Assembly (NCBI GenBank): GCA_036796435.1
Contig: DAIRCY010000006.1
Span: forward strand, 3,604 to 50,700
DNA length: 47,097 nucleotides
From: Acidimicrobiales bacterium
GTDB lineage: Bacteria > Actinomycetota > Acidimicrobiia > Acidimicrobiales > RAAP-2
Reading direction: 5' to 3'
The position numbers and the translations under genes are program-made. Every line of letters begins with the position of its first letter. Position 1 is the first letter of the stretch. The notes beneath the pieces were generated by a model. The model had not been told where the DNA came from, did not search any database, and was given only the letters and a program-made list of their open reading frames with translations. Shown one piece after another: positions 16,745-46,508 of this stretch.

Positions 16745-17944
16745 TCACGCCACCACCCCCTGGGCGCGAAGACCGTCGATCTCCTCGGATTCGTATCCGA
16801 CGGAACGCAGGACGTCGTCGGTGTCCTGGCCGAGGTCCGGGAGACGTCGCTCGACCGATGGCGCGCCGAGCGGGAAGCGCACGACGGGCAGGGTGCCGAC
16901 CGGTGACGCTGCCTCGACGAACATCTGACGAGCAAGGAGCTGAGGGTGCTCGAGGACCTTCTCGATCGTGCGGACCTCGCCGTATGGGAGCCCAACACTG
17001 GCCAGCCGGTCGAGCCAGACCTTGCTCGGCAGCGCAACGATCCTCCGCTCGACGAGCGCATCCAGCTCGTCCCGGTGTCTCCGCCGGGCGTCGATGGTGG
17101 CGAAACGAGGGTCGTCCACGAGCTCGGGCCCGTCGAGGACCTGTTCACACAGGCGCACCCAGTCATGCTCGTTGGCGACGACCAGGTTGACGTAGACGCC
17201 GTCTCGGGCGAGGTACGGGCCGTAGGGGGACAGGTACTGGTGTCGCATGCCCGTGCGTGGCGGCTCTTCTCCTTCGTGCCAGTAGTGGTGCGGGAAGTAG
17301 CTCAGCCACGGGGCGACCGCGTCGAGCATCGCGACGTCGAGGTAGGCACCGGTGCCGCTGGCCGACCGTGCCACGAGGGCGCTCAGCACTGCGATCGCCG
17401 CCGTCGAGCCGCCGATGAGGTCGGTGATGGGGAGGCCCACCTTGGCGGGAGCGTCAGGGGTGCCATTGGACAAGAGGACGCCCGACTCGCCCTGGATGAG
17501 CAGGTCGTAGGCCTTCACATCCCGATACGGTCCCGTCTGGCCGTATCCCGAGAGGCTGCAGTAGACGAGCGCGGGGTTCTCTCCCCGCAGGTCTGCATCG
17601 GACAGCCCGAGGCGCGCCACTACCCCAGGGCTGAAGTTCTCGAGGAAGGCATCCGCGCTGCGGACGAGGCGCCGGACCACGGCTCGCCCCTGCTCGCTGC
17701 CAAGGTCGACAGCCACGTCTCGCTTCCCCACGTTGAAAGCGACGAAGCCGCTCGAGAGCCCTCTGGCGACGTGGTCCCAGCCGCGCACGACGTCCCCACC
17801 CCCGGGTCGCTCGATCTTGATCACCTCGGCGCCGAGCTCCGCGAGGATGAACGAGCAGAAGGGCATCGCGACCGCCTGCTCGAGCGCGACGATTCTCGTC
17901 CCCTTCAGCGGGCGGCTTTGCGTGTCTGCATCTACCTCGGTCAC
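16745..17944 (-). CDS. Class III (CaiB/BaiF-family) CoA-transferase
   Basis: In-frame part of ORF 16745..18274. The GTG start overlaps the MaoC stop (GTGA). ...LKGTRIVALEQAVAMPFCSFILAELGAEVIKIERPGGGD.... Confidence 0.88.
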   Translation of the reverse strand: MTEVDADTQSRPLKGTRIVALEQAVAMPFCSFILAELGAEVIKIERPGGGDVVRGWDHVARGLSSGFVAFNVGKRDVAVDLGSEQGRAVVRRLVRSADAFLENFSPGVVARLGLSDADLRGENPALVYCSLSGYGQTGPYRDVKAYDLLIQGESGVLLSNGTPDAPAKVGLPITDLIGGSTAAIAVLSALVARSASGTGAYLDVAMLDAVAPWLSYFPHHYWHEGEEPPRTGMRHQYLSPYGPYLARDGVYVNLVVANEHDWVRLCEQVLDGPELVDDPRFATIDARRRHRDELDALVERRIVALPSKVWLDRLASVGLPYGEVRTIEKVLEHPQLLARQMFVEAASPVGTLPVVRFPLGAPSVERRLPDLGQDTDDVLRSVGYESEEIDGLRAQGVVA

Positions 17945-18450
17945 GGTCCGGTCGCCACCGTCGGGAAGATCTCCGTCCTCGGCGCGTGCTCCCGCTTCCA
18001 CACCATCACCGATCGCCGGTAGCGGATCACGAGCTCGCCGTCCTGGTTGTAGCCACGGGTCTCCACCTTGACGACGCCCTGCGTCGGTCGCGACCGGGAC
18101 GGTCGCACTTCGAGGACCTCGCTCTCCGAGTACAAGGTGTCGCCGGCAAAGACCGGATGTGGCAGCTGGATCTCGTCCCAGCCGAGCGCAAACCCGTTCT
18201 CGCTCACGTCTGCGACGCCCATGCCTGCGACGATGGAGAGCGTGAGAGCACTGTTCACCAGGCAGCGGCCCCACTCGGTGCGCTTGCCGTACTCACGGTT
18301 GAAGTGGATCTGATTGGTGTTGTTGGTGAGAAGGGTGAACGTGATGTTGTCGGACTCGGTGACCGTGCGGCCGTAACGACAACGATAGATGTCGCCGACG
18401 GCGAAGTCCTCGAGGTAGCGACCCTCCCATCCGGCTCGTACCGTTCCCAT
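17941..18450 (-). CDS. MaoC-like (hot-dog fold) enoyl-CoA hydratase/dehydratase
   Basis: ORF 17941..18450. ...FTLLTNNTNQIHFN... is a hydratase-type motif. GAGGAGGAAGG lies upstream. Confidence 0.85.
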   Translation of the reverse strand: MGTVRAGWEGRYLEDFAVGDIYRCRYGRTVTESDNITFTLLTNNTNQIHFNREYGKRTEWGRCLVNSALTLSIVAGMGVADVSENGFALGWDEIQLPHPVFAGDTLYSESEVLEVRPSRSRPTQGVVKVETRGYNQDGELVIRYRRSVMVWKREHAPRTEIFPTVATGP

Positions 18451-18489
18451 GCTGCCTTCCTCCTCTGATGCCGAGCTCGACTCGGCTCG

Positions 18490-19650
18490 TTAGTAAGACT
18501 TGGGCATTCCAAGTACCCGTTGGCCGAGATAGGACAGGACGAGGTTGTTGCTGACGGGCGCGATCTCGAAGAGCTTGGTCTCACGGAACTTCCGCTCGAT
18601 GGCGTACTCGGAAGCGAAGCCGTTGCCTCCGTATGCCGTGATCGCTGCATTGGCCGCTTGCCACGACGCCGAGGAAGCCAGGTACTTCGCCATGTTCGCT
18701 TCGGCACCACAGGGCGCGCCCCCATCGAAGAGCGTCGACGCGTGAAAGCGCATCAAGCTTGCTGCGCGCACGGCCGCGTACGCCTGCGCGATAGGGAACT
18801 GGACTCCCTGGTTCGCGCCGATCGGCTTGCCGAAGACGACGCGAGACGACGCATACTGTGCAGCACGCTCGACAAAGAATCGGCCGTCACCGATTGCTTC
18901 CGACGCGACCAGGATGCGCTCGGCGTTCCATCCGTCGATGATGTAGCGGAACCCCTTGCCTTCCTCGCCGATCAGGTTCTCTGCGGGGACCTCCAGGTCG
19001 GTCAGAAAGACCTGGTAGGTGTGATGGTTGAACATGACCGGGATACGCGAGATCTCGACTGCATCCCCGGCTGTGCGCAGGTCCACCAAGAGGAGAGACA
19101 GCCCCTCGGTCGTGGGCTGACCCTCGGTGAGCGGCGAGGTACGAACGAGAAGCAGCATGAGGTCGGAGTACGCAACGCGCGAGATGAACGTCTTCTGTCC
19201 GTTGACCACGTAGTGGTCGCCGTTCCTTACCGCTCTCGTCGTGATCTGGGTGGTGTCGCTCCCCGCGTCCGGCTCGGTGACGCCGAAGGCTTGAAGGCGC
19301 AGCTCCCCCGCGGCGATCGCCGGGAGGTATGCCTGCTTCTGCTCGGCGCTCCCGTGCCGAAGGACCGTGCCCATCGTGTACATCTGGGCATGGCACGCGT
19401 TGGCATTGGCACCCGATCGGTGGATCTCCTCCAAGACGATTGCGGCCTCGGTAATTCCGAGCCCGCCGCCGCCGAGGTCCTCGGGTATGAGGATCGACAG
19501 CCACCCGAGCTCGGTGAGGGTCCTCACGAAGGCCTCGGGGTAGGCCCCCGTCGCTTCGAGATCCTGCCAATAGCTGTCGGGGAACTTGGCGCACACGTCC
19601 GCGATTGCATCGGCGATCGTCTGCTGGTCCCCGCTCAGTCGGAAGTCCAT
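18490..19650 (-). CDS. Acyl-CoA dehydrogenase
   Basis: ORF 18490..19650. ACAD architecture with ...YASSRVVFGKPIGANQGVQFPIA... and ...AYGGNGFASEY.... Confidence 0.92.
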   Translation of the reverse strand: MDFRLSGDQQTIADAIADVCAKFPDSYWQDLEATGAYPEAFVRTLTELGWLSILIPEDLGGGGLGITEAAIVLEEIHRSGANANACHAQMYTMGTVLRHGSAEQKQAYLPAIAAGELRLQAFGVTEPDAGSDTTQITTRAVRNGDHYVVNGQKTFISRVAYSDLMLLLVRTSPLTEGQPTTEGLSLLLVDLRTAGDAVEISRIPVMFNHHTYQVFLTDLEVPAENLIGEEGKGFRYIIDGWNAERILVASEAIGDGRFFVERAAQYASSRVVFGKPIGANQGVQFPIAQAYAAVRAASLMRFHASTLFDGGAPCGAEANMAKYLASSASWQAANAAITAYGGNGFASEYAIERKFRETKLFEIAPVSNNLVLSYLGQRVLGMPKSY

Positions 19651-19661
19651 TCCTGGCGTTC

Positions 19662-20702
19662 CTAGGCCGCCGAAGGGGCGGCGGAGAAGTGCCCCGTCCG
19701 GACGAAGTCAGCGTTGGTCAGGTAGTGGTGCAGCTCTCCCGCGAGGTCCTCGGTGTTGGGCACGTATGCCACCACGCAGCGGGTGGAGCCGGCTGCTTCA
19801 TAGCCGGCGAGCTTCGACGGCAGCTTTGCGAGATCACGATCGGCATACATCGGCACGTCATCCACCATCTCGTCGGGGATGAGCTTCCTGGCGGCGGTGA
19901 AGCCGTCGCGGCGATGAGCCTCTTGGACCGCGGTGACGACATCTCCCCATCCCATGGTGGTGAGCGTGTCGCTGTAGCCGCGTTGGAGCGAGTAGAAGGT
20001 CAACACCTTCTTCAAAGCCCAGCGGGCGGCGTCGACGTCGTCGGACAAAGAGACCCGGACCTTGGAGACGACTTGCAGCCCACTCGGGTCGCGCCCGGCC
20101 TCTCGCGCACCACTTTGGAAGTCCTCGACGATGCGCCGGATCATCGGAGGGTTGGCCATGTTGACGACGATCCCGTCGCCGATGCGGCCTGCGAGTCGAG
20201 CCATCTGCGGCCCGAGGCCCGCGATCCAGACTCGCAGGTCGCCCTCGGGGGGCCTGAAGGCCATCTTGAAGGATCCTCGCGTCGCATAGAAGTCGCCCTC
20301 GTAGTCAGGTACGCGTTCGCCCGAGTACGCGGCCCGCAGGATCTCGACGTACTCTTTCATGCGCCGCAGTGGCCGGTCGAACGTCTGGCCATGCCAGCCG
20401 GCGATGATGGGATTGCCCACGCCGAGCCCGAGGATCAACCGTCCTTGCGAGAGCTCGTTGAACGCCGCTGCTTGCAGCGCGAGGGTGATGGGAGATCGGC
20501 CGTAGACGTGGTAAATGGCCGTGCCGAGCTCGATGTTCGACGTCGTCGCCGCCATCGCGGAGAGCAGCACCATGGGGTCTCGCGAATTGGACTCCCCCTT
20601 CCAGACCGCGCCGAAACCGACCTCCTCTGCCAACTTTGCCGCGTCGACACAGACGTTCATCGGGATCTGTGCAGCGGAATTGAACTCCGTGTCGATGATC
20701 AC
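19662..20702 (-). CDS. Luciferase-like monooxygenase (LLM) class flavin- or F420-dependent oxidoreductase
   Basis: ORF 19662..20702. ...AEEVGFGAVWKGES..., ...LGLGVGN.... It has the length and pattern of an LLM TIM-barrel. Confidence 0.8.
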   Translation of the reverse strand: MIIDTEFNSAAQIPMNVCVDAAKLAEEVGFGAVWKGESNSRDPMVLLSAMAATTSNIELGTAIYHVYGRSPITLALQAAAFNELSQGRLILGLGVGNPIIAGWHGQTFDRPLRRMKEYVEILRAAYSGERVPDYEGDFYATRGSFKMAFRPPEGDLRVWIAGLGPQMARLAGRIGDGIVVNMANPPMIRRIVEDFQSGAREAGRDPSGLQVVSKVRVSLSDDVDAARWALKKVLTFYSLQRGYSDTLTTMGWGDVVTAVQEAHRRDGFTAARKLIPDEMVDDVPMYADRDLAKLPSKLAGYEAAGSTRCVVAYVPNTEDLAGELHHYLTNADFVRTGHFSAAPSAA

Positions 20703-20762
20703 TTCGACTCCTTTCTCATGCTGTCGAGTGCCACCGTGGCCGGGCGATCCCGGCTGACCGGG

Positions 20763-36233: not shown

Positions 36234-36319
36234 CGGCTGCCGTCGCCCGGCGGCTAACCTCTCGCGCGTGCGTAGCTGATCCCTGTCGAGCCCGTCCACC
36301 CCAAGCTCCAGGAGATCAC

Positions 36320-37996
36320 GTGTCCGCGCCGTCCCAGCCGCTCTCGCAGTTCGCCACCGTCGCCGTCCGCGGCGTCACCGTCCACCGAGGCCTCGCGCCG
36401 GTGCTCGTGGACGTCGATCTCACCGTCGGCCCGGAGGACCGGATCGGAGTCATCGGCCCGAACGGCGTCGGGAAGACCACGCTGCTCCGGATCCTCGCGG
36501 GCGAGCGACACCCGGACTCGGGCACCGTCCGGGTGACCCCGCCCACAGCGACCGTCGGCTACCTCGCCCAGGAGCCCGAAGCGCGCCCGGGCGAGAGCCT
36601 CGCCGAGCACCTCGCGCGCCGGTCGGGTGTGGCAGGCGCCGAGCGGGAGCTCACCGAGGCCGCGGCGGGTCTCGCCGGAGGAGGGCCCGGGGCCGACGCG
36701 CGGTACGCCACGGCGCTGGAGCGGTACCTGGCGCTCGGCGTGGCCGACTTCGAGGCACGCCGCGGCGAGGTCCTCGACGACCTCGGCCTCGACGCCCAGC
36801 TCCTCTCGGTGCCGACCGCCGGTCTCTCCGGCGGCCAGCGCGCCAAGGGGGCGCTCGCGTCGCTCCTCCTCTCCCGCTTCGAGGTGCTCCTGCTCGACGA
36901 GCCGACCAACGACCTCGACTTCGATGGGCTCGACCGGCTGGAAGCCTTCGTCACCGCGCGCCAAGGGGGCCTCGTCGTCGTGTCGCACGACCGCGCCTTC
37001 CTCGAGCGCGTGGTGTCGTCCGTGCTCGAGATCGACGAGGCCAGCCACCGCGCCGCCCTCTACGCCGGCGGGTTCAACGCCTACCTCGACGCCCGGGAGA
37101 CCGAGCGCCGCCACGCGGAGGAGCGCTACGAGAACTACGTGGCCGCCCGGGACCGACTCCGCGCGCGGGAGCGGGAGCAGCGCGAGTGGGCGGTCGAAGG
37201 GGTCCGACGGCAGAAGAAGCGCCCGCGCGACAACGACAAGGCACAGCGTGACTTCCGGATCAACCGGACCGAGAAGCAGGCGTCGAAGGTACGCATCACC
37301 GAGCGGGCCCTCGAACGACTCGACACCGTGGACAAGCCCTGGGAGGGATGGCGGCTCGACCTCGACCTTCACGCCGCGCCGCGCTCGGGTGACGTCGTCG
37401 GTCGGCTGGAAGGGGCAGTCGTGAAGCGCGGCGACTGGCAGCTGGGCCCCGTCGACCTGGCGGTCTTCTTCGGTGAGCGGGTCGCCATCCTCGGTCCGAA
37501 CGGCTCTGGGAAGTCCACGCTCCTCGCTGCGCTGCTCGGGGACACCGAGCTCGACGAGGGGCGCCGGGTCCTCGGGCCGTCGGTCGTCGTCGGCGAGCTC
37601 CACCAGTCGCGCGCACGGTTCGCCTCGGGCGACGACGGCCTCCTGGAGCAGTTCCTCGACCTCACCGGTCTCGCGCTCGCCGACGCGCGCTCGCTGCTCG
37701 CGAAGTTCGGGCTCGGCGCAGAGCACGTCGCGCGTCCCGCGGCGTCCCTGTCGCCCGGAGAGCGCACCCGCGCGGAGCTCGCCCTCTTGATGGCGAGGGG
37801 AACCAACTGCCTCGTGCTCGACGAGCCCACGAACCATCTGGACCTGCCCGCGATCGAGCAGCTCGAAGACGCCCTGGCGTCGTGGTCCGGCACGCTCCTG
37901 CTCGTCACCCACGACCGGAGGCTTCTCGAAGAGGTCGCCCTGACCCGCCGGATCACCGTCTCGGGCGGCCGCGTCGTCGAGGACGTCCCTGCCTGA
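36320..37996 (+). CDS. ABC-F family ATPase (two NBDs, no TM domain); possible ribosome-associated/ARE-type factor
   Basis: In-frame GTG of ORF 35273..37996. Walker A motifs GPNGVGKTT and GPNGSGKST. Signatures LSGGQRAK and LSPGERTR. The inter-domain linker is highly charged: ...RAREREQREWAVEGVRRQKKRPRDNDKAQRDFRINRTEKQASK.... Confidence 0.88.
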   Translation: MSAPSQPLSQFATVAVRGVTVHRGLAPVLVDVDLTVGPEDRIGVIGPNGVGKTTLLRILAGERHPDSGTVRVTPPTATVGYLAQEPEARPGESLAEHLARRSGVAGAERELTEAAAGLAGGGPGADARYATALERYLALGVADFEARRGEVLDDLGLDAQLLSVPTAGLSGGQRAKGALASLLLSRFEVLLLDEPTNDLDFDGLDRLEAFVTARQGGLVVVSHDRAFLERVVSSVLEIDEASHRAALYAGGFNAYLDARETERRHAEERYENYVAARDRLRAREREQREWAVEGVRRQKKRPRDNDKAQRDFRINRTEKQASKVRITERALERLDTVDKPWEGWRLDLDLHAAPRSGDVVGRLEGAVVKRGDWQLGPVDLAVFFGERVAILGPNGSGKSTLLAALLGDTELDEGRRVLGPSVVVGELHQSRARFASGDDGLLEQFLDLTGLALADARSLLAKFGLGAEHVARPAASLSPGERTRAELALLMARGTNCLVLDEPTNHLDLPAIEQLEDALASWSGTLLLVTHDRRLLEEVALTRRITVSGGRVVEDVPA

Positions 37997-38010: not shown

Positions 38011-39015
38011 TCAGCCTCCGGCGAACGCAGGCACCACGTGTTCGCCGTAGGCGGCGAGCGTCGCGTCCTGCGAGTCGTGCATGAGGTAGATCGCGAAATG
38101 CGAGACGCCGAGCGACTCGAGCTCGCGCAGCTTCGCGACGTGGTCCGCCACCGTCCCGAGGACGCAGAACCGGTCCACGATCTCGTCGGGGACGAACTCG
38201 GTGTCGGGGTTGCCCGCACGGCCGTGGTGGGCGTAGTCGTAGCCGGTCCGGCGCTCGATGTACGAGGTGAGCGCGGCGGGGACCGCCCCGGACTCCTGGC
38301 CGTAGCGCGCGACGAGGTCGGCGACGTGGTTGCCGACCATGCCGCCGAACCAGCGGACCTGCTCGCGCTGGTGGGAGAGGTCGTCTGAGACGTAGGCGGG
38401 GGCCGCCGCACAGACCGTGAGCTCGTCGGGATCGCGTCCCGCCGCCTCGGCCGCCGCGCGGGCGCGCCCGATCGCCCACTCGACCACGAAGGGGTCGGCG
38501 ATCTGGAGGATGAGCCCGTCGGCCTCCCGTCCGGCGACCTCGAGCGCCTTCGGGCCGTACGCGGCCATCCACACTGGGAGCGCCCCGTCGTGCACCCAGG
38601 GGATCCGGACGGTCGTGCCGTGGAGCTCGACCTCCCTGCCCTCCGCCAGCGCCTTCAGCGTGCGGATGCAGGTCGCGAGCTCTTCGAGCGTCGTCGGCCG
38701 CTCGCCGATGACCCGGACGGCGGAGTCCCCGCGCCCGATGCCGCAGATCGTCCTGTTGCCGAACATGTCGTTCAGCGTGGCGAAGAGGGACGCGGTGACC
38801 GGCCACTCCCTCGAGCGGGGGTTCGTCACCATCGGCCCGACCGAGACGCGCCCGGTCGCTTCGAGGATTCGCGAGTAGATGACGAAGGGCTCCTGCCACA
38901 GAACCGGGGAGTCGAAGGTCCACACGGAGGAGAACCCCGCCGCCTCGGCGCGCCGCGCGAGCTCGATGAGCCGCGTCGCCGGCGGATCGGCCTGCAGCAC
39001 CATGCCGAAGTTCAT
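38011..39015 (-). CDS. LLM-class (F420- or FMN-dependent) oxidoreductase
   Basis: ORF 38011..39015. MNFGMVLQADPP...AEAAGFSSVWTFDS.... The ATG overlaps the dihydropyrimidinase stop (ATGA). Confidence 0.85.
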   Translation of the reverse strand: MNFGMVLQADPPATRLIELARRAEAAGFSSVWTFDSPVLWQEPFVIYSRILEATGRVSVGPMVTNPRSREWPVTASLFATLNDMFGNRTICGIGRGDSAVRVIGERPTTLEELATCIRTLKALAEGREVELHGTTVRIPWVHDGALPVWMAAYGPKALEVAGREADGLILQIADPFVVEWAIGRARAAAEAAGRDPDELTVCAAAPAYVSDDLSHQREQVRWFGGMVGNHVADLVARYGQESGAVPAALTSYIERRTGYDYAHHGRAGNPDTEFVPDEIVDRFCVLGTVADHVAKLRELESLGVSHFAIYLMHDSQDATLAAYGEHVVPAFAGG

Positions 39016-40448
39016 CGTCCAAGGCCCTCGTAGCGCCGGGGCGGCACGTCGATGCCGCTGTAGCGCGAACGCATGACGAACCGTCCGTGCCCTTCGCGCC
39101 CGGTGAAGCGGCCACCGTCTATGACAACCTCACCGCGTGAGACGACGGTGTCGACGCACCCCGTCACCGCCGTGCCCTCGTACGCCGAGTAGTCGACCGC
39201 CATGTGGTGGTGCTCGGCTGACAACGTGTGCGTCCGTGCGGGGTCGTAGACGACGATGTCGGCGTCGGCGCCCGGGAGCAACGATCCCTTCTTCGGGTAG
39301 AGCCCGAACAGGCGTGCAGGCGCCGTCGACGTCAGCTCCACCCAGCGGGCGAGCGAGATCCTTCCGCTCACCACCCCCTGGTACACGAGGTCCATCCGGT
39401 GCTCGACGCCCGGCAGACCGTTCGGGATCTTCGAGAAGTCGCCCCGGCCGAGCTCCTTCTGGTCCTTCATGCAGAAGGGGCAGTGGTCCGTCGAGACGAC
39501 CGAGAGGTCGTCGGTGCCGAGCCCCCGCCAGAGCGCCTCGTGGTGCGCCCGGGCGCGGATCGGGGGAGAGCAGACGTACTTCGCACCCTCGAGGTCCGGG
39601 CCGGCCATGAGCGACTCGTCGAGGAACAGGTACTGCGGGCACGTCTCCGCGTACACGGCGCGACCCTCGTCGCGTGCCGAGGCCACCTCGGCGAGCGCCT
39701 CCATCGCCGACAGGTGGACGACGTAGAGGGGACAGCCGGCGACGTCTGCGAGCACGATCGCCCGGTGGGTCGCCTCGCCTTCGAGGACCGACGGTCGGGT
39801 CTCGCCGTGCATGCGCGGCTCACCCTTGCCAGCTGCGAGCGCCTGCGCGACGAGCACGTCGATCGCGATCCCGTTCTCCGCGTGCATCATCACGACCGCG
39901 CCGGTGTCGGCCGCGGCCTGCATCGCCTGGAGGATCTTGCCGTCGTCGGAATAGAACACGCCCGGGTAGGCCATGAACAGCTTGAAGCTCGTCACGCCGT
40001 CGTCGACCAGGCCGTGCATCTCCTTCAGCACGGCGTCGTTCACGTCCGACAGGATCATGTGGAAACCGAAGTCGATCGCGCAGTGACCCTCCGCGCGGCT
40101 CATCCAGGTGTCGAGCCCTTCGCGGGCCGACCCCCCGCGCGGCTGGATGGCGAAGTCGACGATGGTCGTCGTCCCGCCGTGCGCGGCGGCGCGCGTGCCG
40201 GTGAAGAAGGTGTCCGCAGAGAAGGTGCCCCCGAAGGGCATCTCCATGTGCGTGTGCACGTCGATCCCGCCGGGCACGACGAGCTTGCCGGCGGCGTCGA
40301 TGTGCCGCGCGTCGACGGAGCCGGAGACGGAGCCCGAGCCCCCCGGGGCGAGCAGCGCCGCGACCTGCTCGCCTTCCACGAGCACGTCGGCGCGGACGGC
40401 GCCCGACGCGGTCACGACCGTCCCGCCCTCGACGAGGAGCCGGCTCAT
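39012..40448 (-). CDS. Dihydropyrimidinase / D-hydantoinase
   Basis: Internal ATG of ORF 39012..40799. GGIDVHTHMEMPFGGTFSADTFFTGTRAAAHGGTTTIVDF, and FKLFMAY (carbamylated-Lys context). The ATG overlaps the upstream stop (ATGA). Confidence 0.92.
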   Translation of the reverse strand: MSRLLVEGGTVVTASGAVRADVLVEGEQVAALLAPGGSGSVSGSVDARHIDAAGKLVVPGGIDVHTHMEMPFGGTFSADTFFTGTRAAAHGGTTTIVDFAIQPRGGSAREGLDTWMSRAEGHCAIDFGFHMILSDVNDAVLKEMHGLVDDGVTSFKLFMAYPGVFYSDDGKILQAMQAAADTGAVVMMHAENGIAIDVLVAQALAAGKGEPRMHGETRPSVLEGEATHRAIVLADVAGCPLYVVHLSAMEALAEVASARDEGRAVYAETCPQYLFLDESLMAGPDLEGAKYVCSPPIRARAHHEALWRGLGTDDLSVVSTDHCPFCMKDQKELGRGDFSKIPNGLPGVEHRMDLVYQGVVSGRISLARWVELTSTAPARLFGLYPKKGSLLPGADADIVVYDPARTHTLSAEHHHMAVDYSAYEGTAVTGCVDTVVSRGEVVIDGGRFTGREGHGRFVMRSRYSGIDVPPRRYEGLGR

Positions 40449-41284
40449 GGCGCCACCAGGGGTCCGTAGGCTTCCGGGCGCCGGTCGCGGTAGAAGGCCC
40501 AGAGTTGTCGCACCTCCTCCAGCATCGCCATGTCGAGGTCGCGCACGATGACCTCGTCCTCGGAGTCCGAGGCCGCCTCTCCCACGATCCGGCCGCGTGG
40601 GTCGCAGAAGTACGAACCGCCGTAGAAGTCGTCGTCGCCGAGCGGTTCCACGCCCACCCGGTTGATGGCACCCACGAAGTACTCGTTCGCCACGGCGGCG
40701 GCCGGCTGCTCCAGGTTCCACAGGTACGCGGAGAGGCCGCGGCTCGTCGCCGAGGGGTTGAAGACGATGCGCGCCCCGGCGAGGCCGAGCGCCCGCCACC
40801 CCTCGGGGAAGTGGCGGTCGTAGCAGATGTAGACACCGATGCGCCCCACAGCGGTGTCGAAGACGGGAAAACCGAGGTTGCCGGGCCGGAAGTAGTACTT
40901 CTCGTAGAACCCCTTCACCTGGGGGATGTGGTGCTTTCGGTAGATGCCGAGTTGGGTCCCGTCGGCGTCGACCACGACCGCCGTGTTGTAGTAGACGCCA
41001 GGCTGCTCCTCTTCGTAGATCGGAGCGACGATCACCATCCCGGTCTCCCGGGCGAGCTCCTGCACCCGCTCGGTCGTCGGGCCGGGGATCGGTTCCGCGT
41101 ACGAGTAGTGCTCGGGCTCCTGGACCTGGCAGAAGTACGGGCCGTAGAAGAGCTCCTGGAAGCAGAGCACCTGCGCGCCCTGCGCGGCGGCCTCCTTGGC
41201 CAGCACGAAGTTCTGCTCGACCATCGTCTCCTTGTCGCCGGTCCAGCGCGTCTGGATGAGCCCCGCCGTCACGATCTCCGCCAT
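40445..41284 (-). CDS. Beta-ureidopropionase-type carbon-nitrogen hydrolase (nitrilase superfamily)
   Basis: ORF 40445..41284, preceded by GGAAAGGAGGAGG. E-K-C triad contexts CFQELF, YRKHHIP and VYICYDRHFPE. ...IVFNPSAT...LW..E...AAVAN..F..AINRVG... closely parallels eukaryote-type beta-ureidopropionase as I recall it. Confidence 0.85.
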   Translation of the reverse strand: MAEIVTAGLIQTRWTGDKETMVEQNFVLAKEAAAQGAQVLCFQELFYGPYFCQVQEPEHYSYAEPIPGPTTERVQELARETGMVIVAPIYEEEQPGVYYNTAVVVDADGTQLGIYRKHHIPQVKGFYEKYYFRPGNLGFPVFDTAVGRIGVYICYDRHFPEGWRALGLAGARIVFNPSATSRGLSAYLWNLEQPAAAVANEYFVGAINRVGVEPLGDDDFYGGSYFCDPRGRIVGEAASDSEDEVIVRDLDMAMLEEVRQLWAFYRDRRPEAYGPLVAP

Positions 41285-41407
41285 CGCCTCCTCCTTTCCT
41301 TTCGCTCGGTCATCTTCCGCTCAGTCCAGCACTCTCCGGCAACCGATGCCGGACAAGCGCCGCCGTCGTGCCCTCCGCCCGGAGGCGGCCCCGCGTCGTG
41401 CGGCGCG

Positions 41408-42385
41408 TCAGAAGGTGAGCGGGTGCTTCGCCATCATCGTCACGATGTCGTAGACGACGGTCGCCGCGGCGAGCGCCGTGATCTCGGCGTGGTCGTAGGC
41501 CGGCGCGACCTCGACCACGTCGCCGCCCACGAGCGGGATGCCCTCGAGGCCGCGCAACAGGTGCAGCAGCTCCCGGCTCGTCACGCCACCCATCTCGGGC
41601 GTCCCGGTGCCGGGCGCGAACGCGGGGTCGAGCACGTCGATGTCCACCGACAAGTACACGGGTGCGTCGCCGACCCGGCGCCGGACACGTGCGACGGTCT
41701 CTTCCAGCCCGATGCGGTCCAGGTCGCCGGCTCGCACGATCTGGAAGCCGAAGCGCGCGTCGTCCCGCAGGTCCAGCTCGTCGTAGATCGGTCCGCGGAT
41801 TCCCACGTGCACCGAGTGGTCCGCGAGCAGCAGCCCCTCCTCGAAGGCGCGACGGAAGACGGTCCCGTGCGTGAGCGGCGAGCCGAAGTAGGTGTCCCAG
41901 GTGTCCAGGTGGGCGTCGAAGTGAACGAGGGCGACCGGCCCGTGGAGCTCGTTGACCGCCCGCAGGAGGGGCAGCGCGACGGTGTGGTCGCCTCCCATGG
42001 TGACGAGCCGCGACCGGTTGGCCAGCAGCGCTCGGGCGTGGTCGCGGATCTGGTCGATCGCGACTGTGAGCTGGAACGGGTTGACCGGGACGTCGCCCGC
42101 GTCGACGACCTGGACCTTCTCGAGTGGTGCGAGACCGAGCTCGGGATGGAAGGCGGGGCGGATGTTGCGCGAGGCGGTCCGCACCGCGATCGGCCCGAAC
42201 CTCGCGCCCGGACGGAACGAGGTGCCGTTGTCGAAGGGCGCGCCGAGCACAGCGATGTCGTAGCGGTGGACCTGGTCGACCGCAGGCAGCCGGACGAAGG
42301 TCGCGGCGCCGGCGAAGCGCGGCACCGTGGTCCCCGGGACGGGAGCCACGATGGGGTCACGGTCTGCGTTCGTGCGCTCGGTCAT
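41408..42385 (-). CDS. Ureohydrolase of the agmatinase/arginase family
   Basis: ORF 41408..42385. Mn-binding motifs GGDHTV, HFDAHLD and SVDIDVLDP. Confidence 0.9.
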   Translation of the reverse strand: MTERTNADRDPIVAPVPGTTVPRFAGAATFVRLPAVDQVHRYDIAVLGAPFDNGTSFRPGARFGPIAVRTASRNIRPAFHPELGLAPLEKVQVVDAGDVPVNPFQLTVAIDQIRDHARALLANRSRLVTMGGDHTVALPLLRAVNELHGPVALVHFDAHLDTWDTYFGSPLTHGTVFRRAFEEGLLLADHSVHVGIRGPIYDELDLRDDARFGFQIVRAGDLDRIGLEETVARVRRRVGDAPVYLSVDIDVLDPAFAPGTGTPEMGGVTSRELLHLLRGLEGIPLVGGDVVEVAPAYDHAEITALAAATVVYDIVTMMAKHPLTF

Positions 42386-43255
42386 CTAGGCGCGACCTCC
42401 GTTCCCGTCGAAGGGGTGCGGGAAGGCCCTCGGCGCGGGTCCGACCTCCCGGGTGTGTGCGGCGATCTCGGCCATGGTGGCCACCCACAGTCCGTCCAGC
42501 GACTCCATCCGCTCGACGAGCCGCTCGAGGGCGGCGAGGCGCGACGGCCGGCCGCTCAGGAAGGGGTGGTTGGTGAGGACGAAGCAGCAGCCCTCACGGT
42601 AGAAGGCGTCGAGCTCGAGCGTCCACATCTCGAGCACCTTGGCCGGGCTCTCGATGAGCCCGCTCCCGGTGATCCCGGGCACGTAGGCGTACTGCTCCCA
42701 GTCGTCGAGCGCCCAGTGGACCGGGATCTCCACGATGTCGCGGGCCCCGGAGCCCGCGTGCTCGGCCAGGACGTAGGGGACCTCGCAGTCCATCATCGAG
42801 CTGTCGTAGAGGAAGCCGCGGTCGATGAGAAGGGACGGGGTGTGGAAGTTCAGCTCCCACAGGGGCGCCCTGTACCCCACGGGGCGCCCCGCTCCCGCCT
42901 TGTCGAGGGCCTCGAGACCCCGGTCGATCATGCGAGCCTCGTCGTCGCGCGTCATGCCGATCGTCGACTCGTGCAGGTAGCTGTGGTGCGCGATCTCGTG
43001 ACCGGCCCGTGCGATCTCGTCGACCACCGAGGGATACCTCTCCGCCGTGAACCCAGGGACGAAGAAGGTGGCATGCAGCCGATGCCGCTCGAGAAGCCTG
43101 AGGATGCGCGGCACGCCGGTGAGAGGCCCGTACGCCTGATGGGACATCACCGTGAGCCGAGCGGCCGACGACGGGTCGGCCGAGAGCAGCGCCGACTCGG
43201 CGTCGACGTCGAAGGTGAGCGCGGCCGCGGCGACCTTTCCTTCGGGCCACCGCAT
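42386..43255 (-). CDS. Polysaccharide-deacetylase-fold hydrolase (PuuE allantoinase-like)
   Basis: C-terminal part of ORF 42386..44701. LTFDVDAES, HATFFVPG, GHEIAHHSY. The start is ATG 43255, or TTG 43300 preceded by GGGAG. The stop abuts the next gene's start with a 0-nt gap. Confidence 0.8.
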   Translation of the reverse strand: MRWPEGKVAAAALTFDVDAESALLSADPSSAARLTVMSHQAYGPLTGVPRILRLLERHRLHATFFVPGFTAERYPSVVDEIARAGHEIAHHSYLHESTIGMTRDDEARMIDRGLEALDKAGAGRPVGYRAPLWELNFHTPSLLIDRGFLYDSSMMDCEVPYVLAEHAGSGARDIVEIPVHWALDDWEQYAYVPGITGSGLIESPAKVLEMWTLELDAFYREGCCFVLTNHPFLSGRPSRLAALERLVERMESLDGLWVATMAEIAAHTREVGPAPRAFPHPFDGNGGRA

Positions 43256-43350
43256 GGCGGCCGGACGCGCGGTCGCATCCTGCGTGCCGTGCGCGCTCAA
43301 CGACAGCTCCCGACAGCCATGCAGGGCGCCTCCCGCGCGCTGGCGGACGG

Positions 43351-44826
43351 TCAGCCCTCGCTCGGCATGCCGGCGGCGACGGTGGCGGCGCCGACCGGTT
43401 CCCCCGCCACGCGCCGCGTTTCCGCGGAACCGGCGCGCCGCAGACCCTTCCCGACGTCGCGCGCGGACCCGGTCTCGAGCAGCCGGATCACGAAGTAGAC
43501 GAGACCACCGACGACGAAGCCCACGTAGAAGGCGATGTCCCCGCCGTGCAGCCAGTTCGCCGACGCAGGGCCGACGAACAGTGTGGTGTCCATGAAGGGC
43601 ACGGCGGCGCCGAACCCGACGAGCTCTGCGACCAGCGCCTCCCAACCCGAGGGAAGGCTCTTGAAGTCCATCACGCTCGCCGGGTCGACCCGGCCGCGGG
43701 CGCGCCACCAGTGGACGATCTCGATGGCGGCGAACGGTGGGACCCAGTAGGTGACGAAGAGCAGCACTTCTTCGAACTTCGTGGTGAGGTTGCCGGTGTG
43801 CAGCCACAGGGTCAGGGCGAACGCGAGCGCGGTCACGACGACAGCCACGTACGGCCGCCTGACCCGGGCACCTGCGGCCTGGAGCGCGAGCGACCCCGAG
43901 TAGTCGTTCATCGCGTTCACCGAGACGGTGCCGATCCAGATGGCGATCATCGCCATCGCCCCGAGCGCGCCACCCCCCATCAGGTGGTCGATCCCGCCCG
44001 AGGTGCTCTGCGCGACCGCGGAAGCCGCGGCGAGGCCGAGGATCTCGACCCAGATCGACGAGAGGGAGACACCCGCCAGGCTGAGGAAGAAGATCCCCGC
44101 CTTCGACGCGTCCGACTTCATGTAGCGGCTGTAGTCCGAGGCGTAGGCGCCCCAGGAGATGACGAAGCTGGCCGAGAGGGTGACCATCAGGATGAAGCCG
44201 CCGGCGAGGTTGCCCCCGTGCGAGGTCGCGGCAGCGTGCCAGTTGCCGACTGAGGCCACCTTCACGGTCACCGCGACGAACATCGCCCCGAGGACCACCG
44301 ACATCCACTTCTGGAAGAGATGCATGACCTCGTAGCCGAAGAGGCCGAGGACGCCCTGCATGACGAGCACGATCAGCAGGCCCACCCAGAAGGGCACGTG
44401 GATCAGGATGTTGATGGCCTCGGCGCCGAAGATGGCGTTGATCGCGTCCCACGCGATGGTGGACAGCCACTGGAGGACGCCAGGCAGGGCGATCGACTTG
44501 CCGAACGAGAACCGCCCGACGGGGATCTGCCCGAGCCCCGTCTTCGGTCCCCAGGTCCCGAGCACCGCGACGAGGAGGCCGCCGATCAAGGTCCCGACGA
44601 CGATCGCCGTGACCCCGAGCGAGAATCCGACACCGACGAAGCTGGCCATGGCGAGCGTGCCGATGAAGAACCCCGCGGGAACCAGGTTCGGCGTGAACCA
44701 CACGGTGAAGACCCGGTGCAGCCGCCCGTACCGCTCGTCCTCGGGGATCGGCGCCATGCCGTGCATCTCCAAAGTGGCGTGACCCTCGTACTTCGGCCGG
44801 TTGCCCTCGTAGACCTCGCTCGACAT
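43351..44826 (-). CDS. NCS1-family (purine-cytosine / hydantoin / allantoin type) permease
   Basis: ORF 43351..44853. I prefer ATG 44826, preceded by GAGGGAGGGG. About 12 TM helices. N-terminus ...MAPIPEDERYGRLHRVFTVWFTPNL.... Confidence 0.88.
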   Translation of the reverse strand: MSSEVYEGNRPKYEGHATLEMHGMAPIPEDERYGRLHRVFTVWFTPNLVPAGFFIGTLAMASFVGVGFSLGVTAIVVGTLIGGLLVAVLGTWGPKTGLGQIPVGRFSFGKSIALPGVLQWLSTIAWDAINAIFGAEAINILIHVPFWVGLLIVLVMQGVLGLFGYEVMHLFQKWMSVVLGAMFVAVTVKVASVGNWHAAATSHGGNLAGGFILMVTLSASFVISWGAYASDYSRYMKSDASKAGIFFLSLAGVSLSSIWVEILGLAAASAVAQSTSGGIDHLMGGGALGAMAMIAIWIGTVSVNAMNDYSGSLALQAAGARVRRPYVAVVVTALAFALTLWLHTGNLTTKFEEVLLFVTYWVPPFAAIEIVHWWRARGRVDPASVMDFKSLPSGWEALVAELVGFGAAVPFMDTTLFVGPASANWLHGGDIAFYVGFVVGGLVYFVIRLLETGSARDVGKGLRRAGSAETRRVAGEPVGAATVAAGMPSEG

Positions 44827-44948
44827 GTGGCCCCTCCCTCTCTGGCGCCCCACGGTGCGCCGATCGCGCCCCGGTTCCCGGCTCGCGCCCGGCTCACCAG
44901 CCCCCGCTGCGGGACGCCGGGACGGATCATAGGCAGCGCGAGTCGAGC

Positions 44949-44978: not shown

Positions 44979-46508
44979 ATGGACGACGACGCCCCCGCCG
45001 CCAGCCGCTTCGGCTGGCACCCCGAGCCGGCCATGTTCGACCTCGCCGCAGGAGGGGCCCGGCCGGTGCTGGACGCGCTCGGGCACCAGGCGTGGACGCT
45101 CGCCCTCGACTACCTCTACGACGAGGCGCTCGTCCGCCCGGTCGGCCCCGACTCCTACCAGGAGCTGCGTGCCCGCTTCTTCGGCCCGGCGGGCGACCCC
45201 GCGCCCGCGCCCGAAGCGCCGTCGTCCTCGGCCCAGGTGCTCGACGAGGTCCGCTCGCGGGTGAGCCCGTACGCGTACAACGCGTACCACCCCCGCTCCT
45301 TCTCGTACTTCACGCCGCCGCCGGTGCCGATGTCGGTGGTGGGCGAGCTCCTCTGCCAGGTCCTCCACCAGGGGATCGACGTCTTCCACTCCGGGCCGGT
45401 CGGCGCCCTCGTCGAAGAGGAGGTCACCCGGTGGCTCGCGGACCTCGTCGGCGGCGGACCCGAGAGCTGGGGCGTCCTCACCTCGGGGGGCGTGATGGCC
45501 AACGTCATGGCGATGACGGTCGCGCGTGACCGGCACCTGTCCCACCTTCTCGGCACGGACGTCCCGCCGCGCGGCGGCGCCCTCGAGCGGGCGCGCGTCT
45601 ACGTCTCGGACCAGGCGCACTTCTCGATCGGCCGGGCTCTCGACATGCTCGGCTTCCCGCCGGACGCGCTCGCCGTCGTGGCGAGCGACGACCGGTACCG
45701 CCTGCAGGCCGCCCCGGTCGCCCACCTGATCGCCGAGGACAGGGCAGCCGGGCTGGTGCCGTTCTGCATCGCCGCCGTCTGCGGGTCGACCAACACCGGC
45801 TCGGTCGACGACGTGCCCGGCCTCGCCGAGCTCGCGGCCCGCGAGGGGCTCTGGCTGCACGTGGACGCCGCGTACGGTGGCGCTGCGCGCCTCTCCGCTC
45901 GGGACACGTCCCGGGTCCCGGGGCTCGAGCTCGCGGACTCGGTCACGGTCGATCCGCACAAGTGGCTCTTCCAGGCGTACGACATCGGGGGGCTCGTGGT
46001 GCGCCGCCGCGAGGACCTGCACCGCACCTTCGACCGGTCGCCGGAGTACTACCGGTCCGCGATCCCCGAGACCGCGCCGCTCAACTGGCTCGAGTACTCC
46101 ATGGAGGGGACGCGCCGCTTCCGGGCCCTCAAGCTGTGGACGTCGTGGAAGCACGTGGGGAGCGACGGGTTCGCCCGCCTCGTGGAGCACGACAACGATG
46201 TCGCCGCCTTCCTCGCCGACGAGATCCGCCGCGCCGACGACTTCGACGCCGCGGTCGAAACCCCGGACCTGTCGGTCGTGTGCTTCCGCCACGTTCCCCC
46301 GGACATGCCTGACGCGGCGCTCGACGCGCACCAGGACCGGCTCCAGCGGGCGCTCGAGGTCTCGGGGGAGGCGTGGGTGTCGACCACCAAGCTCCGCGGG
46401 CGCACCTACCTGCGCGCCGGTGTCATGAACTGGCTCACGACCGAAGACGACGTCCTCGCCCTGCTCGCCTCGCTGCGGCGCCTCGCACGCGGCCTCCCCG
46501 AGGAGTGA
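44979..46508 (+). CDS. Group II pyridoxal-phosphate-dependent amino-acid decarboxylase
   Basis: ORF 44979..46508. ...TSGGVMANV..., ...HVDAAYGG..., PLP-lysine motif VDPHKW. Confidence 0.88.
   Translation: MDDDAPAASRFGWHPEPAMFDLAAGGARPVLDALGHQAWTLALDYLYDEALVRPVGPDSYQELRARFFGPAGDPAPAPEAPSSSAQVLDEVRSRVSPYAYNAYHPRSFSYFTPPPVPMSVVGELLCQVLHQGIDVFHSGPVGALVEEEVTRWLADLVGGGPESWGVLTSGGVMANVMAMTVARDRHLSHLLGTDVPPRGGALERARVYVSDQAHFSIGRALDMLGFPPDALAVVASDDRYRLQAAPVAHLIAEDRAAGLVPFCIAAVCGSTNTGSVDDVPGLAELAAREGLWLHVDAAYGGAARLSARDTSRVPGLELADSVTVDPHKWLFQAYDIGGLVVRRREDLHRTFDRSPEYYRSAIPETAPLNWLEYSMEGTRRFRALKLWTSWKHVGSDGFARLVEHDNDVAAFLADEIRRADDFDAAVETPDLSVVCFRHVPPDMPDAALDAHQDRLQRALEVSGEAWVSTTKLRGRTYLRAGVMNWLTTEDDVLALLASLRRLARGLPEE

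What the first reader, a model, noticed from the sequence alone, without database searches (positions are those of the whole stretch)
38011..41284. Reductive pyrimidine catabolism genes without a PydA/PreTA dehydrogenase: a translationally coupled LLM oxidoreductase as candidate non-orthologous replacement
Beta-ureidopropionase (40445-41284), dihydropyrimidinase (39012-40448) and an LLM-class oxidoreductase (38011-39015) are joined by two ATGA stop/start overlaps. The canonical pathway needs a first step, uracil/thymine reduction to dihydropyrimidine, catalysed by PydA or PreT/PreA. No such Fe-S/flavin dehydrogenase is in the window. An F420H2- or FMNH2-dependent LLM enzyme is chemically plausible for ene-reduction of the C5=C6 bond. 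I do not know whether this role has been shown experimentally.
Basis: partly seen in the sequence, partly recalled or inferred. Interest (0 to 1): 0.6.

Follow-up and report, generated by a model that had tools for sequence, protein, structure and literature searches.

The report
Candidate F420-dependent uracil reductase operon
This three-gene operon for breaking down uracil and thymine lacks the usual first enzyme and carries an uncharacterised coenzyme-F420 enzyme that travels with the pathway across Actinomycetota, so it probably does that first step, but nobody has assayed it.

Summary
Three minus-strand genes are joined by two ATGA stop/start overlaps: a CN-hydrolase (40445-41284), a dihydropyrimidinase (39012-40448) and a TIGR03842 F420-type LLM oxidoreductase (38011-39015).

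- In 401 sampled Actinomycetota genomes the LLM occurs in 82. Of these, 81 also have the dihydropyrimidinase, 70 of them within about 6 kb.
- 78 of the 82 have cofD, an F420 biosynthesis gene.
- None of the 82 has a PreA/PydA-type dehydrogenase; only 1 of the 401 does.
- Around the LLM in 100 loci lie the rest of the reductive pyrimidine pathway: amidase, class-III aminotransferase, methylmalonate-semialdehyde dehydrogenase and a nucleobase transporter. Only step 1 has no gene.
- The window's genome (84% complete) makes F420. Its only DHOD-family gene is the biosynthetic pyrD.
- The protein models as a Mer-like TIM barrel. It keeps Mer's F420-site motifs but lacks Mer's catalytic Glu.

Hydantoinases without this LLM mostly sit in reductive urate clusters, some beside a different F420 LLM.

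I found no paper on this in the library searched. Earlier notes of this scan reached the same reading on other genomes. I could not confirm that the family occurs in other phyla.

The parts
40445..41284 (-). CN-hydrolase (nitrilase-superfamily N-carbamoyl amidase), the probable beta-ureidopropionase and step 3 of the pathway. It is the first gene of the operon.
   Evidence: PF00795 at 224 bits. The closest solved relatives are N-carbamoylputrescine amidohydrolase (195 bits) and animal beta-ureidopropionases (174-176 bits). The E44/K117/C154 triad is present. Orthologues lie beside the dihydropyrimidinase in 66 of 80 related loci.
39012..40448 (-). Dihydropyrimidinase / D-hydantoinase, step 2. 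Its ATG overlaps the stop of the CN-hydrolase gene (ATGA).
   Evidence: TIGR02033 at 574 bits, cut-off 393. 502 bits to solved D-hydantoinases. The metal-ligand motifs HxH, K156, H189, H245 and D321 are present.
38011..39015 (-). TIGR03842 LLM-class F420-dependent oxidoreductase, the candidate uracil/thymine reductase for step 1. It is the last gene of the operon and its ATG overlaps the dihydropyrimidinase stop (ATGA).
   Evidence: TIGR03842 at 564 bits, cut-off 295. The AlphaFold model has pLDDT 94 and its best fold match is Mer with F420, TM 0.78. Co-conserved with pathway genes.
41285..41407 (-). 123-nt intergenic leader with a Shine-Dalgarno-like AAGGAGGAGG just before the CN-hydrolase ATG. 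It may hold the operon's own promoter.
   Evidence: Sequence. The sigma-70 consensus scan and the Rfam scan found nothing here.
41408..44853 (-). Upstream same-strand module of three tightly packed genes: NCS1 transporter (43351-44853), polysaccharide-deacetylase/PuuE-like protein (42386-43369) and an agmatinase-family ureohydrolase (41408-42385). It may be co-transcribed, and the transporter could serve the pathway. Its membership in the pathway is uncertain.
   Evidence: Family hits. The ureohydrolase is closest to guanidinobutyrase and 3-guanidinopropionase; the deacetylase is closest to PDB 3rxz. This module was not found beside the triad in the 80 named related loci, and only a 32%-identical ureohydrolase hit appeared in 1 of the other 38 loci.

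Best explanation
The three genes form a minimal reductive pyrimidine-catabolism operon. Its first chemical step, reducing the C5=C6 bond of uracil or thymine to the 5,6-dihydropyrimidine, is carried out by the TIGR03842 luciferase-like (LLM) enzyme with reduced coenzyme F420 as hydride donor. This enzyme would stand in for the flavin/iron-sulfur dehydrogenase PydA or PreT-PreA.

Proposed mechanism (inferred): F420H2 sits at the C-terminal face of the TIM barrel as it does in Mer. Its C5 hydride goes to C6 of the pyrimidine and a protein acid protonates C5. The dihydropyrimidinase then opens the ring, and the CN-hydrolase releases beta-alanine (or beta-aminoisobutyrate), NH3 and CO2. Translational coupling sets the stoichiometry of the three enzymes.

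Shown here: gene order, family membership, fold, F420 capacity of the genome, absence of a canonical dehydrogenase, and conservation of the linkage.

Inferred: the substrate, the cofactor actually used and the direction of the reaction.
For: (1) Pathway hole. In 20 diverse LLM loci and 80 named relatives, the LLM lies with the other pathway genes. These are the dihydropyrimidinase, a CN-hydrolase or M20 carbamoyl-amidase, a class-III aminotransferase, CoA-acylating methylmalonate-semialdehyde dehydrogenase (694 bits on TIGR01722), and an NCS1 or NMT1-type ABC transporter. That is every step of the Pyd pathway except step 1, and the LLM is the only unassigned oxidoreductase.

(2) Linkage. 81 of 82 LLM-carrying genomes have the dihydropyrimidinase; 70 have it within about 6 kb and 21 directly adjacent. 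The LLM occurs in at least 18 families and 46 genera.

(3) No competitor. No NF006183 (PreA) match at E<=1e-50 occurs in any LLM-carrying genome, and only 1 of 401 genomes exceeds the cut-off. The window's genome has one PF01180 gene, and it lies in the carB-pyrD-pyrF operon.

(4) Cofactor. 78 of the 82 have cofD, against 242 of 401 overall. The own genome has cofD twice and fbiC. All 11 best PDB sequence hits are F420-dependent LLM enzymes. Mer's F420-site features are kept: Val63-Thr64-Asn65 at the cis-peptide backstop, Asp97, Gln171 and Gly154-Pro155-Lys156.

(5) Different substrate from Mer. Mer's catalytic Glu6 is Val/Thr/Cys in this family.

(6) The minimal triad here and in the closest Acidimicrobiales relatives (L081-L083) holds just steps 1 to 3.

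(7) The exceptions are explained. 12 of 16 inspected hydantoinase loci without this LLM are reductive-urate clusters (YgeW, SsnA, XdhB, MocA), not pyrimidine clusters.

(8) Precedent. A putative F420/FMN oxidoreductase is genetically required for uracil C5=C6 reduction in mureidomycins (PMC10714638). A putative F420 LLM was proposed to replace YgfK/UacX in the reductive urate pathway (PMC12507026).
Against: - There is no assay, mutant or expression data for any family member.
- Four LLM-carrying genomes (G127, G193, G351, G384, all one family) show no cofD at E<=1e-60.
- This genome is only 84% complete, so a PreA gene on missing DNA cannot be excluded for it.
- An F420H2-regenerating enzyme (Fgd, Fno) was found only below cut-off.
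- From my own knowledge, characterised F420 LLM enzymes mostly act on C-O or C=N bonds, and ene-reduction of a uracil ring by this fold is unproven.
- The in vitro assay of the mureidomycin reductase failed (PMC10714638).
- Some relatives at 34-44% identity sit in unrelated contexts, so the function cannot be extended to the whole superfamily branch.
Confidence: 0.7

Rival explanations
1. The LLM does reduce a ring to feed the dihydropyrimidinase, but its true substrate is not plain uracil or thymine. It could be a modified pyrimidine, or an unsaturated hydantoin-type ring. The operon would then be a variant N-heterocycle pathway.
For: The dihydropyrimidinase family is also a D-hydantoinase family. 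A 38%-identical LLM sits with an amidohydrolase and an Asp/Glu (hydantoin-type) racemase. In this window the upstream genes are a guanidino-acid-type ureohydrolase and a PuuE-like deacetylase rather than pyrimidine genes. A second F420 LLM clade accompanies hydantoinase plus SsnA in urate clusters.
Against: The conserved partners are a class-III aminotransferase and methylmalonate-semialdehyde dehydrogenase. These are the enzymes needed for beta-alanine and beta-aminoisobutyrate, the specific products of uracil and thymine. The upstream module of this window is not conserved beside the triad elsewhere.
Confidence: 0.12
2. The LLM acts later in the same pathway, for example as an F420-dependent malonic/methylmalonic-semialdehyde reductase (a PydE-like role). 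Step 1 would then be done by an unrecognised enzyme elsewhere.
For: F420 LLM enzymes include alcohol and sugar dehydrogenases (Adf, Fgd), so carbonyl reduction is within the fold's known chemistry.
Against: The minimal clusters (this window, L081-L083, L055, L052) contain no aminotransferase, so no semialdehyde is made locally. Where the aminotransferase is present, a CoA-acylating semialdehyde dehydrogenase usually accompanies it and already consumes the aldehyde. The tightest linkage of the LLM is to the dihydropyrimidinase.
Confidence: 0.07
3. The LLM is a flavin (FMN) monooxygenase that attacks the pyrimidine ring oxidatively, as RutA does, or it has a function unrelated to its neighbours.
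For: RutA of the Rut pathway is also a luciferase-like enzyme acting on uracil (own knowledge). Four carriers lack detectable cofD.
Against: No RutA or FMN-monooxygenase model scores significantly, apart from weak tails. The best sequence and fold matches are all F420 enzymes. An oxidative ring-opener would make the dihydropyrimidinase unnecessary, yet the two are nearly always linked. 78 of the 82 carriers have cofD.
Confidence: 0.05

Closest known systems
PydA / PreT-PreA dihydropyrimidine dehydrogenase (EC 1.3.1.1/1.3.1.2) and the Pyd pathway
   Same: The proposed reaction is the same (uracil/thymine to 5,6-dihydropyrimidine). The enzyme holds the same place in a cluster with dihydropyrimidinase, beta-ureidopropionase, aminotransferase and semialdehyde dehydrogenase.
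   Different: There is no homology. PydA/PreA is a DHOD-like FMN domain with Fe-S clusters and an FAD/NAD(P)H module. This protein is a single-domain luciferase-like TIM barrel with a predicted F420 site and no Fe-S motifs.
PydAc, the ferredoxin-dependent dihydropyrimidine dehydrogenase of Clostridia (PMC7332683)
   Same: It is a precedent that step 1 of the Pyd pathway is swapped to match the host's preferred low-potential electron carrier.
   Different: PydAc is still a PydA homologue that has lost the FAD domain. The enzyme here belongs to an unrelated fold and would use F420H2.
Mer, F420-dependent methylene-tetrahydromethanopterin reductase (PDB 8qpl, 1z69; PMC11094777)
   Same: It is the closest solved relative over the full length (profile E about 1e-53; fold TM 0.78). 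The backstop Val-Thr-Asn motif, Asp97 (Mer Asp96), Gln171 (Mer position 178) and Gly-Pro-Lys are kept.
   Different: Mer's catalytic Glu6 is Val6 here. The scores lie below both Mer cut-offs (128 against 276 and 108 against 349). The helical lid carries family-specific invariant residues: RWF..N229-H230..D233, and R256, Y259-D260-Y261, H264. The host is an aerobic-type actinobacterium with no methanopterin context.
Putative F420 luciferase-family reductase in reductive uric-acid clusters (proposed for Chloroflexota, PMC12507026)
   Same: The same logic applies: an F420 LLM stands where a DPD-like ring reductase (YgfK/UacX) would be, next to a cyclic amidohydrolase. I found the same arrangement in three Actinomycetota loci (L074, L075, L076).
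   Different: It is a different LLM clade, only 25-28% identical to P0003 and scoring closest to the Mer models. It belongs to a different pathway (SsnA, HyuA, YgeW) and is likewise unassayed.
SSGG-03002 / NpsU, uracil-ring reductase of mureidomycin and napsamycin biosynthesis (PMC10714638)
   Same: [quoted passage not shown]
   Different: It acts on a uridyl-peptide antibiotic, not on free base catabolism. Its fold family could not be checked here, and its in vitro assay failed.
RutA (Rut pathway pyrimidine monooxygenase)
   Same: It is a luciferase-like fold enzyme acting on uracil (own knowledge).
   Different: RutA is FMN- and O2-dependent, opens the ring and needs no dihydropyrimidinase. 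No RutA model matched P0003 at E<=0.001.

Membership tests
TIGR03842 (F420_CPS_4043) LLM-class F420-dependent oxidoreductase | Whole-protein score above the curated cut-off over the full model length | tested here: met
   563.7 bits against a cut-off of 295.45, model positions 1-329 of 329.
F420-dependent branch of the luciferase-like (LLM) superfamily | (beta/alpha)8 barrel with a helical lid, closest to solved F420 enzymes | tested here: met
   Model pLDDT 94. The top 15 fold matches are all F420-dependent LLM enzymes: Mer, FGD2, Adf and FGD1.
F420-dependent branch of the luciferase-like (LLM) superfamily | Non-prolyl cis-peptide backstop after beta3 and the residues lining the deazaflavin | tested here: inconclusive
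   The sequence motif is conserved: Met62-Val63-Thr64-Asn65 aligns to jMer Gly61-Val62-Thr63-Asn64, and Val63, Thr64 and Asn65 are invariant in 42 sequences. The cis conformation and F420 binding itself cannot be shown by sequence.
F420-dependent branch of the luciferase-like (LLM) superfamily | The host makes F420 | tested here: met
   cofD twice and an 872-aa FbiC frame in the own genome. 78 of 82 carriers have cofD.
Mer (methylene-H4MPT reductase) | Catalytic glutamate at the end of beta1 (jMer Glu6) and a score above the equivalog cut-off | tested here: not met
   The position is Val6, and Val/Thr/Cys across the family. Scores are 128.5 against 276 and 107.8 against 348.7.
PydA / PreA dihydropyrimidine dehydrogenase | DHOD-like FMN domain (PF01180) with 4Fe-4S domains; NF006183 above cut-off | tested here: not met
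   P0003 has only PF00296. It is therefore not a member; the claim is that it works like one. NF006183 finds nothing over cut-off in the genome.
Dihydropyrimidinase / D-hydantoinase (TIGR02033) | Score above cut-off, and binuclear-metal ligands including the carboxylated lysine | tested here: met
   574 bits against 393. H65, H67, K156, H189, H245 and D321 are present.
Nitrilase-superfamily beta-ureidopropionase / N-carbamoyl amidase | CN_hydrolase domain with the Glu-Lys-Cys triad, and substrate N-carbamoyl-beta-alanine | tested here: inconclusive
   The domain and the triad (E44, K117, C154) are present. It is similar both to N-carbamoylputrescine amidase (195 bits) and to beta-ureidopropionase (176 bits). 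Substrate is inferred from context only.
RutA-type FMN-dependent LLM monooxygenase | Match to the RutA/FMN-monooxygenase models | tested here: not met
   No RutA model appears among the 21 NCBIfam hits. The FMN-type LLM models score 40 bits or less.

The most novel reading that the evidence does not exclude
TIGR03842 enzymes are a third, non-homologous class of dihydropyrimidine dehydrogenase, driven by F420H2. They would be the normal entry to pyrimidine catabolism in F420-making Actinomycetota such as Streptomyces and Acidimicrobiia. Together with the separate Mer-like LLM clade in reductive urate clusters, this would make reductive dearomatisation of nucleobases a general physiological role of coenzyme F420.
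Probability: 0.65. Interest if true: 0.7.

Novelty: new variant of a known kind. Interest (0 to 1): 0.62.

Why it matters
**A pathway hole.** Reductive pyrimidine catabolism has no assigned first enzyme in most of the dihydropyrimidinase-carrying Actinomycetota genomes sampled. Only 1 of the 401 genomes sampled has a PreA-type gene. Assigning the step to an F420 enzyme would fill that hole in genome annotations and metabolic models of Streptomyces, Acidimicrobiia and their relatives.

**A role for F420.** It would give one of the many orphan F420-dependent LLM families a physiological role. It would also add nitrogen scavenging from nucleobases to the short list of known functions of F420 in aerobic bacteria.

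**Possible use.** An F420H2-dependent reductase for the uracil ring could be useful for making dihydropyrimidines and beta-amino acids.

**Testability.** The claim can be tested directly with one purified protein and one knockout.

Tried and rejected
- **Cross-phylum spread.** Three related loci are titled 'uncultured Acidobacteriota' (L137, L144, L153). A phylum search centred on one of them (G402, the genome of L144) returned the same genomes as the Actinomycetota sample. That genome is therefore classed in the window's own phylum, and I have no cross-phylum evidence of my own.
- **Gene fusions.** Long open frames reported around some LLM hits (817-923 aa) might have been fusions. In the two cases I checked by coordinates (G054/L051 and G011/L050), the neighbouring genes are in different frames or share only a one-base overlap. 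The other long frames were not checked.
- **Hydantoinases without the LLM.** These looked like counter-examples to complementarity. 12 of 16 inspected are reductive-urate clusters. Four (L070-L073) remain unexplained, one of them at a contig end.
- **Regulatory elements.** The sigma-70 promoter scan, the intrinsic terminator scan and the Rfam scan of 37-46 kb found nothing.
- **Literature.** Ten full-text searches (F420 with dihydropyrimidinase, dihydrouracil, dihydropyrimidine dehydrogenase, reductive pyrimidine, and others; TIGR03842; luciferase-like with dihydropyrimidinase) found no paper that assigns this role. The Selengut and Haft 2010 paper was not held.
- **F420H2 supply.** Fgd and Fno were found only below cut-off in this draft genome.
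- **Active-site geometry.** Model coordinates are not exposed, so no pocket or docking analysis was possible.
- **Not used.** Complex prediction, because no protein-protein claim is made.


Full report
**Observation**

The window is about 70% G+C. On the minus strand, three ORFs occupy exactly the coordinates given: 41284-40445, 40448-39012 and 39015-38011. Both junctions read ATGA, so each start codon overlaps the preceding stop. A 123-nt gap with a strong Shine-Dalgarno-like AAGGAGGAGG precedes the first gene. A convergent ABC-F gene ends 14 nt beyond the last one. The triad is therefore a compact translationally coupled unit.

- P0002 is a dihydropyrimidinase/D-hydantoinase: TIGR02033 at 574 bits against a cut-off of 393, and 502 bits to solved D-hydantoinases, with all metal ligands present.
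- P0001 is a CN-hydrolase with the Glu-Lys-Cys triad. It is about equally similar to N-carbamoylputrescine amidase and to animal beta-ureidopropionase.
- P0003 is a full-length member of TIGR03842, an LLM-class F420-dependent oxidoreductase family with no assigned function (564 bits against 295).

**The genome**

The window lies in a draft genome of 2.56 Mb in 139 contigs, 84% complete. The best relatives of the LLM gene are Acidimicrobiales MAGs at 68-69% identity. I infer that the organism is an acidimicrobial actinobacterium.

- The genome has two cofD genes and an 872-aa FbiC frame, so it can make F420.
- The PreA model NF006183 finds nothing near its cut-off.
- The only PF01180 gene sits between carB and pyrF, so it is the biosynthetic dihydroorotate dehydrogenase.
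- A methylmalonate-semialdehyde dehydrogenase is encoded elsewhere.
- Fgd- and Fno-like genes were seen only below cut-off.

**Conservation**

I searched an even sample of 401 Actinomycetota genomes with four models.

| Model | Genomes with a match |
|---|---|
| TIGR03842 (the LLM) | 82, almost always single copy, in at least 18 families and 46 genera |
| TIGR02033 (dihydropyrimidinase) | 121 |
| cofD | 242 |
| PreA over cut-off | 1 |

The eight genomes with any PreA match at E<=1e-50 include no LLM carrier.

The remaining counts come from my hand tally of the coordinates.
- 81 of the 82 LLM carriers have the dihydropyrimidinase.
- In 70 of them it lies within about 6 kb on the same contig, and in 21 it is directly adjacent.
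- Of the other 11, six have it on a different contig of a fragmented assembly and five have it 12-56 kb away.
- 78 of the 82 carriers have cofD. The four without it (G127, G193, G351, G384) belong to one family.

The tallies include unpublished genomes: G318 and G088 (both LLM carriers), G120, G048, G001 and G336, and G493. Removing them does not change any conclusion.

**What travels with the LLM**

I fetched 20 loci from different families and mapped them by tblastn and NCBIfam. Beside the LLM lie:
- the dihydropyrimidinase;
- either the CN-hydrolase or an M20 hydantoinase/carbamoylase-family amidase;
- a class-III aminotransferase;
- CoA-acylating methylmalonate-semialdehyde dehydrogenase (694 bits);
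- an NCS1 nucleobase symporter or an NMT1-type ABC transporter.

In 80 named genomes (Streptomyces, Kitasatospora, Kutzneria, Kribbella, Amycolatopsis, Dactylosporangium, Rubrobacter, Solirubrobacteraceae, Microthrix and Acidimicrobiia MAGs; at least 595 loci exist), the counts within 8 kb are:
- dihydropyrimidinase in 74;
- CN-hydrolase in 66;
- aminotransferase in 58.

This is the complete reductive pyrimidine pathway down to acetyl- or propionyl-CoA, missing only the ring reductase. The LLM is the one conserved oxidoreductase with no role. The aminotransferase and semialdehyde dehydrogenase point specifically to beta-alanine and beta-aminoisobutyrate, that is to uracil and thymine. The closest relatives (L081-L083) carry the same minimal CN-hydrolase, dihydropyrimidinase, LLM triad as this window.

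**The apparent exceptions**

Forty genomes have a TIGR02033 hit but no TIGR03842.
- I fetched 16 of these loci. The hydantoinase there is only 36-59% identical to P0002 and has no Pyd neighbours.
- In 12 of the 16 it lies with YgeW, SsnA, XdhB or MocA. These mark the reductive uric-acid pathway described in PMC12507026.
- Several of these lineages lack cofD.
- In three F420-positive loci (L074-L076) a different, Mer-like LLM (25-28% identical to P0003) sits next to SsnA and the hydantoinase. That paper noted the same arrangement in Chloroflexota.

Two separate F420 LLM clades therefore stand where a DPD-like ring reductase would be, in two nucleobase pathways.

**The protein**

- A profile of 19 family members finds Mer over its full length (E about 1e-53), followed only by other F420 LLM enzymes.
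- An AlphaFold model from 42 sequences has pLDDT 94. It matches Mer-F420 structures at TM 0.78.
- I mapped the mutational study of jMer (PMC11094777) onto the alignment.
  - Kept: the Val-Thr-Asn backstop motif, Asp97, Gln171 and Gly-Pro-Lys(154-156).
  - Lost: the catalytic Glu6, which protonates the methylene-pterin. It is Val, Thr or Cys in this family.
- Family-specific invariant polar residues cluster at the C-terminal ends of the strands and in the helical lid: Ser36, Arg95, Ser98, Asp174, Asn229, His230, Tyr259, Asp260, Tyr261, His264 and Cys284.
- This fits a small polar substrate. Which residue donates the C5 proton is a guess.
- The family has about 407 clusters (at 50% identity) with E<=1e-30.
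- The link to an amidohydrolase or CN-hydrolase persists at 46% and 40% identity. It is lost in other relatives at 34-44%.

**Mechanism proposed**

F420H2 has a redox potential close to that of NADPH (own knowledge). It would deliver a hydride to C6 of uracil or thymine, and a protein acid would protonate C5. The dihydropyrimidinase and the carbamoyl-amidase then release beta-alanine or beta-aminoisobutyrate, NH3 and CO2. I put this at about 0.7.

Rivals:
- a related but different ring substrate (0.12);
- a later carbonyl-reducing step (0.07);
- an FMN oxygenase or an unrelated role (0.05).

**What is known**

- Ten full-text searches found no paper assigning this function.
- The nearest published ideas are:
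  - the ferredoxin-dependent PydAc (PMC7332683);
  - the proposed F420 reductase of the urate pathway (PMC12507026);
  - the genetically defined uracil-ring reductase of mureidomycin biosynthesis (PMC10714638).
- This scan's own earlier notes hold the same reading for at least 35 other genomes. They are not independent evidence.
- I re-derived the core claims here and could not confirm their cross-phylum claim.

**Verdict**

It is a new enzyme class proposed for a known reaction, and it has not been tested biochemically.

Noticed in passing
L074:3170-4147, L075:10633-11607, L076:13505-14482: In three F420-positive Actinomycetota genomes a Mer-like F420 LLM (25-28% identical to P0003, best NCBIfam hit Mer at about 189 bits, below cut-off) lies beside SsnA and a HyuA-type hydantoinase. 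XdhB or a weak YgeW-like hit lies nearby in two of the three (L075, L076). This is the reductive uric-acid cluster in which PMC12507026 proposed an F420 reductase for Chloroflexota, so the arrangement also exists in Actinomycetota.
   Followed up: partly
window 41408-44853 (-): Upstream of the triad, three tightly packed genes encode an NCS1 transporter with no solved relative, a polysaccharide-deacetylase/PuuE-like protein (352 bits to PDB 3rxz) and an agmatinase-family ureohydrolase closest to guanidinobutyrase and 3-guanidinopropionase. This may be a guanidino-compound module. 3-guanidinopropionase would also yield beta-alanine. It is not conserved beside the triad in relatives.
   Followed up: partly
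window 44979-46508 (+): Divergently transcribed group-II PLP decarboxylase. It is related to L-2,4-diaminobutyrate decarboxylase (212 bits) and to the PLP-dependent aspartate 1-decarboxylase PanP (144 bits), both far below cut-off. Substrate unknown.
   Followed up: no
window 17941-20762 (-): A second F420-type LLM oxidoreductase (19662-20762) that matches no subfamily above cut-off. It lies in a row with an acyl-CoA dehydrogenase (18490-19707) and a RipB/Ich-like (R)-enoyl-CoA hydratase (17941-18489).
   Followed up: no
L137, L144, L153: Records titled 'uncultured Acidobacteriota bacterium' carry the LLM at 63-64% identity. A phylum search centred on one of them, G402 (the genome of L144), returned the same genomes as the Actinomycetota sample. 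The record title and the GTDB placement therefore disagree for that genome, and probably for the other two.
   Followed up: partly
L169:342-3621: A 38%-identical LLM lies in one run with a 479-aa amidohydrolase and an Asp/Glu (hydantoin-type) racemase. This may be a hydantoin-utilisation variant of the same theme.
   Followed up: no
G127, G193, G351, G384: Four LLM-carrying genomes of one family show no cofD at E<=1e-60, although their close relatives have it. This could be loss of F420 synthesis, an assembly gap, or cofactor scavenging.
   Followed up: no
window 36254-37996 (+): The convergent downstream gene is an ABC-F ATPase of the ribosomal-protection-like kind (359 bits, just under the 380 cut-off).
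   Followed up: no
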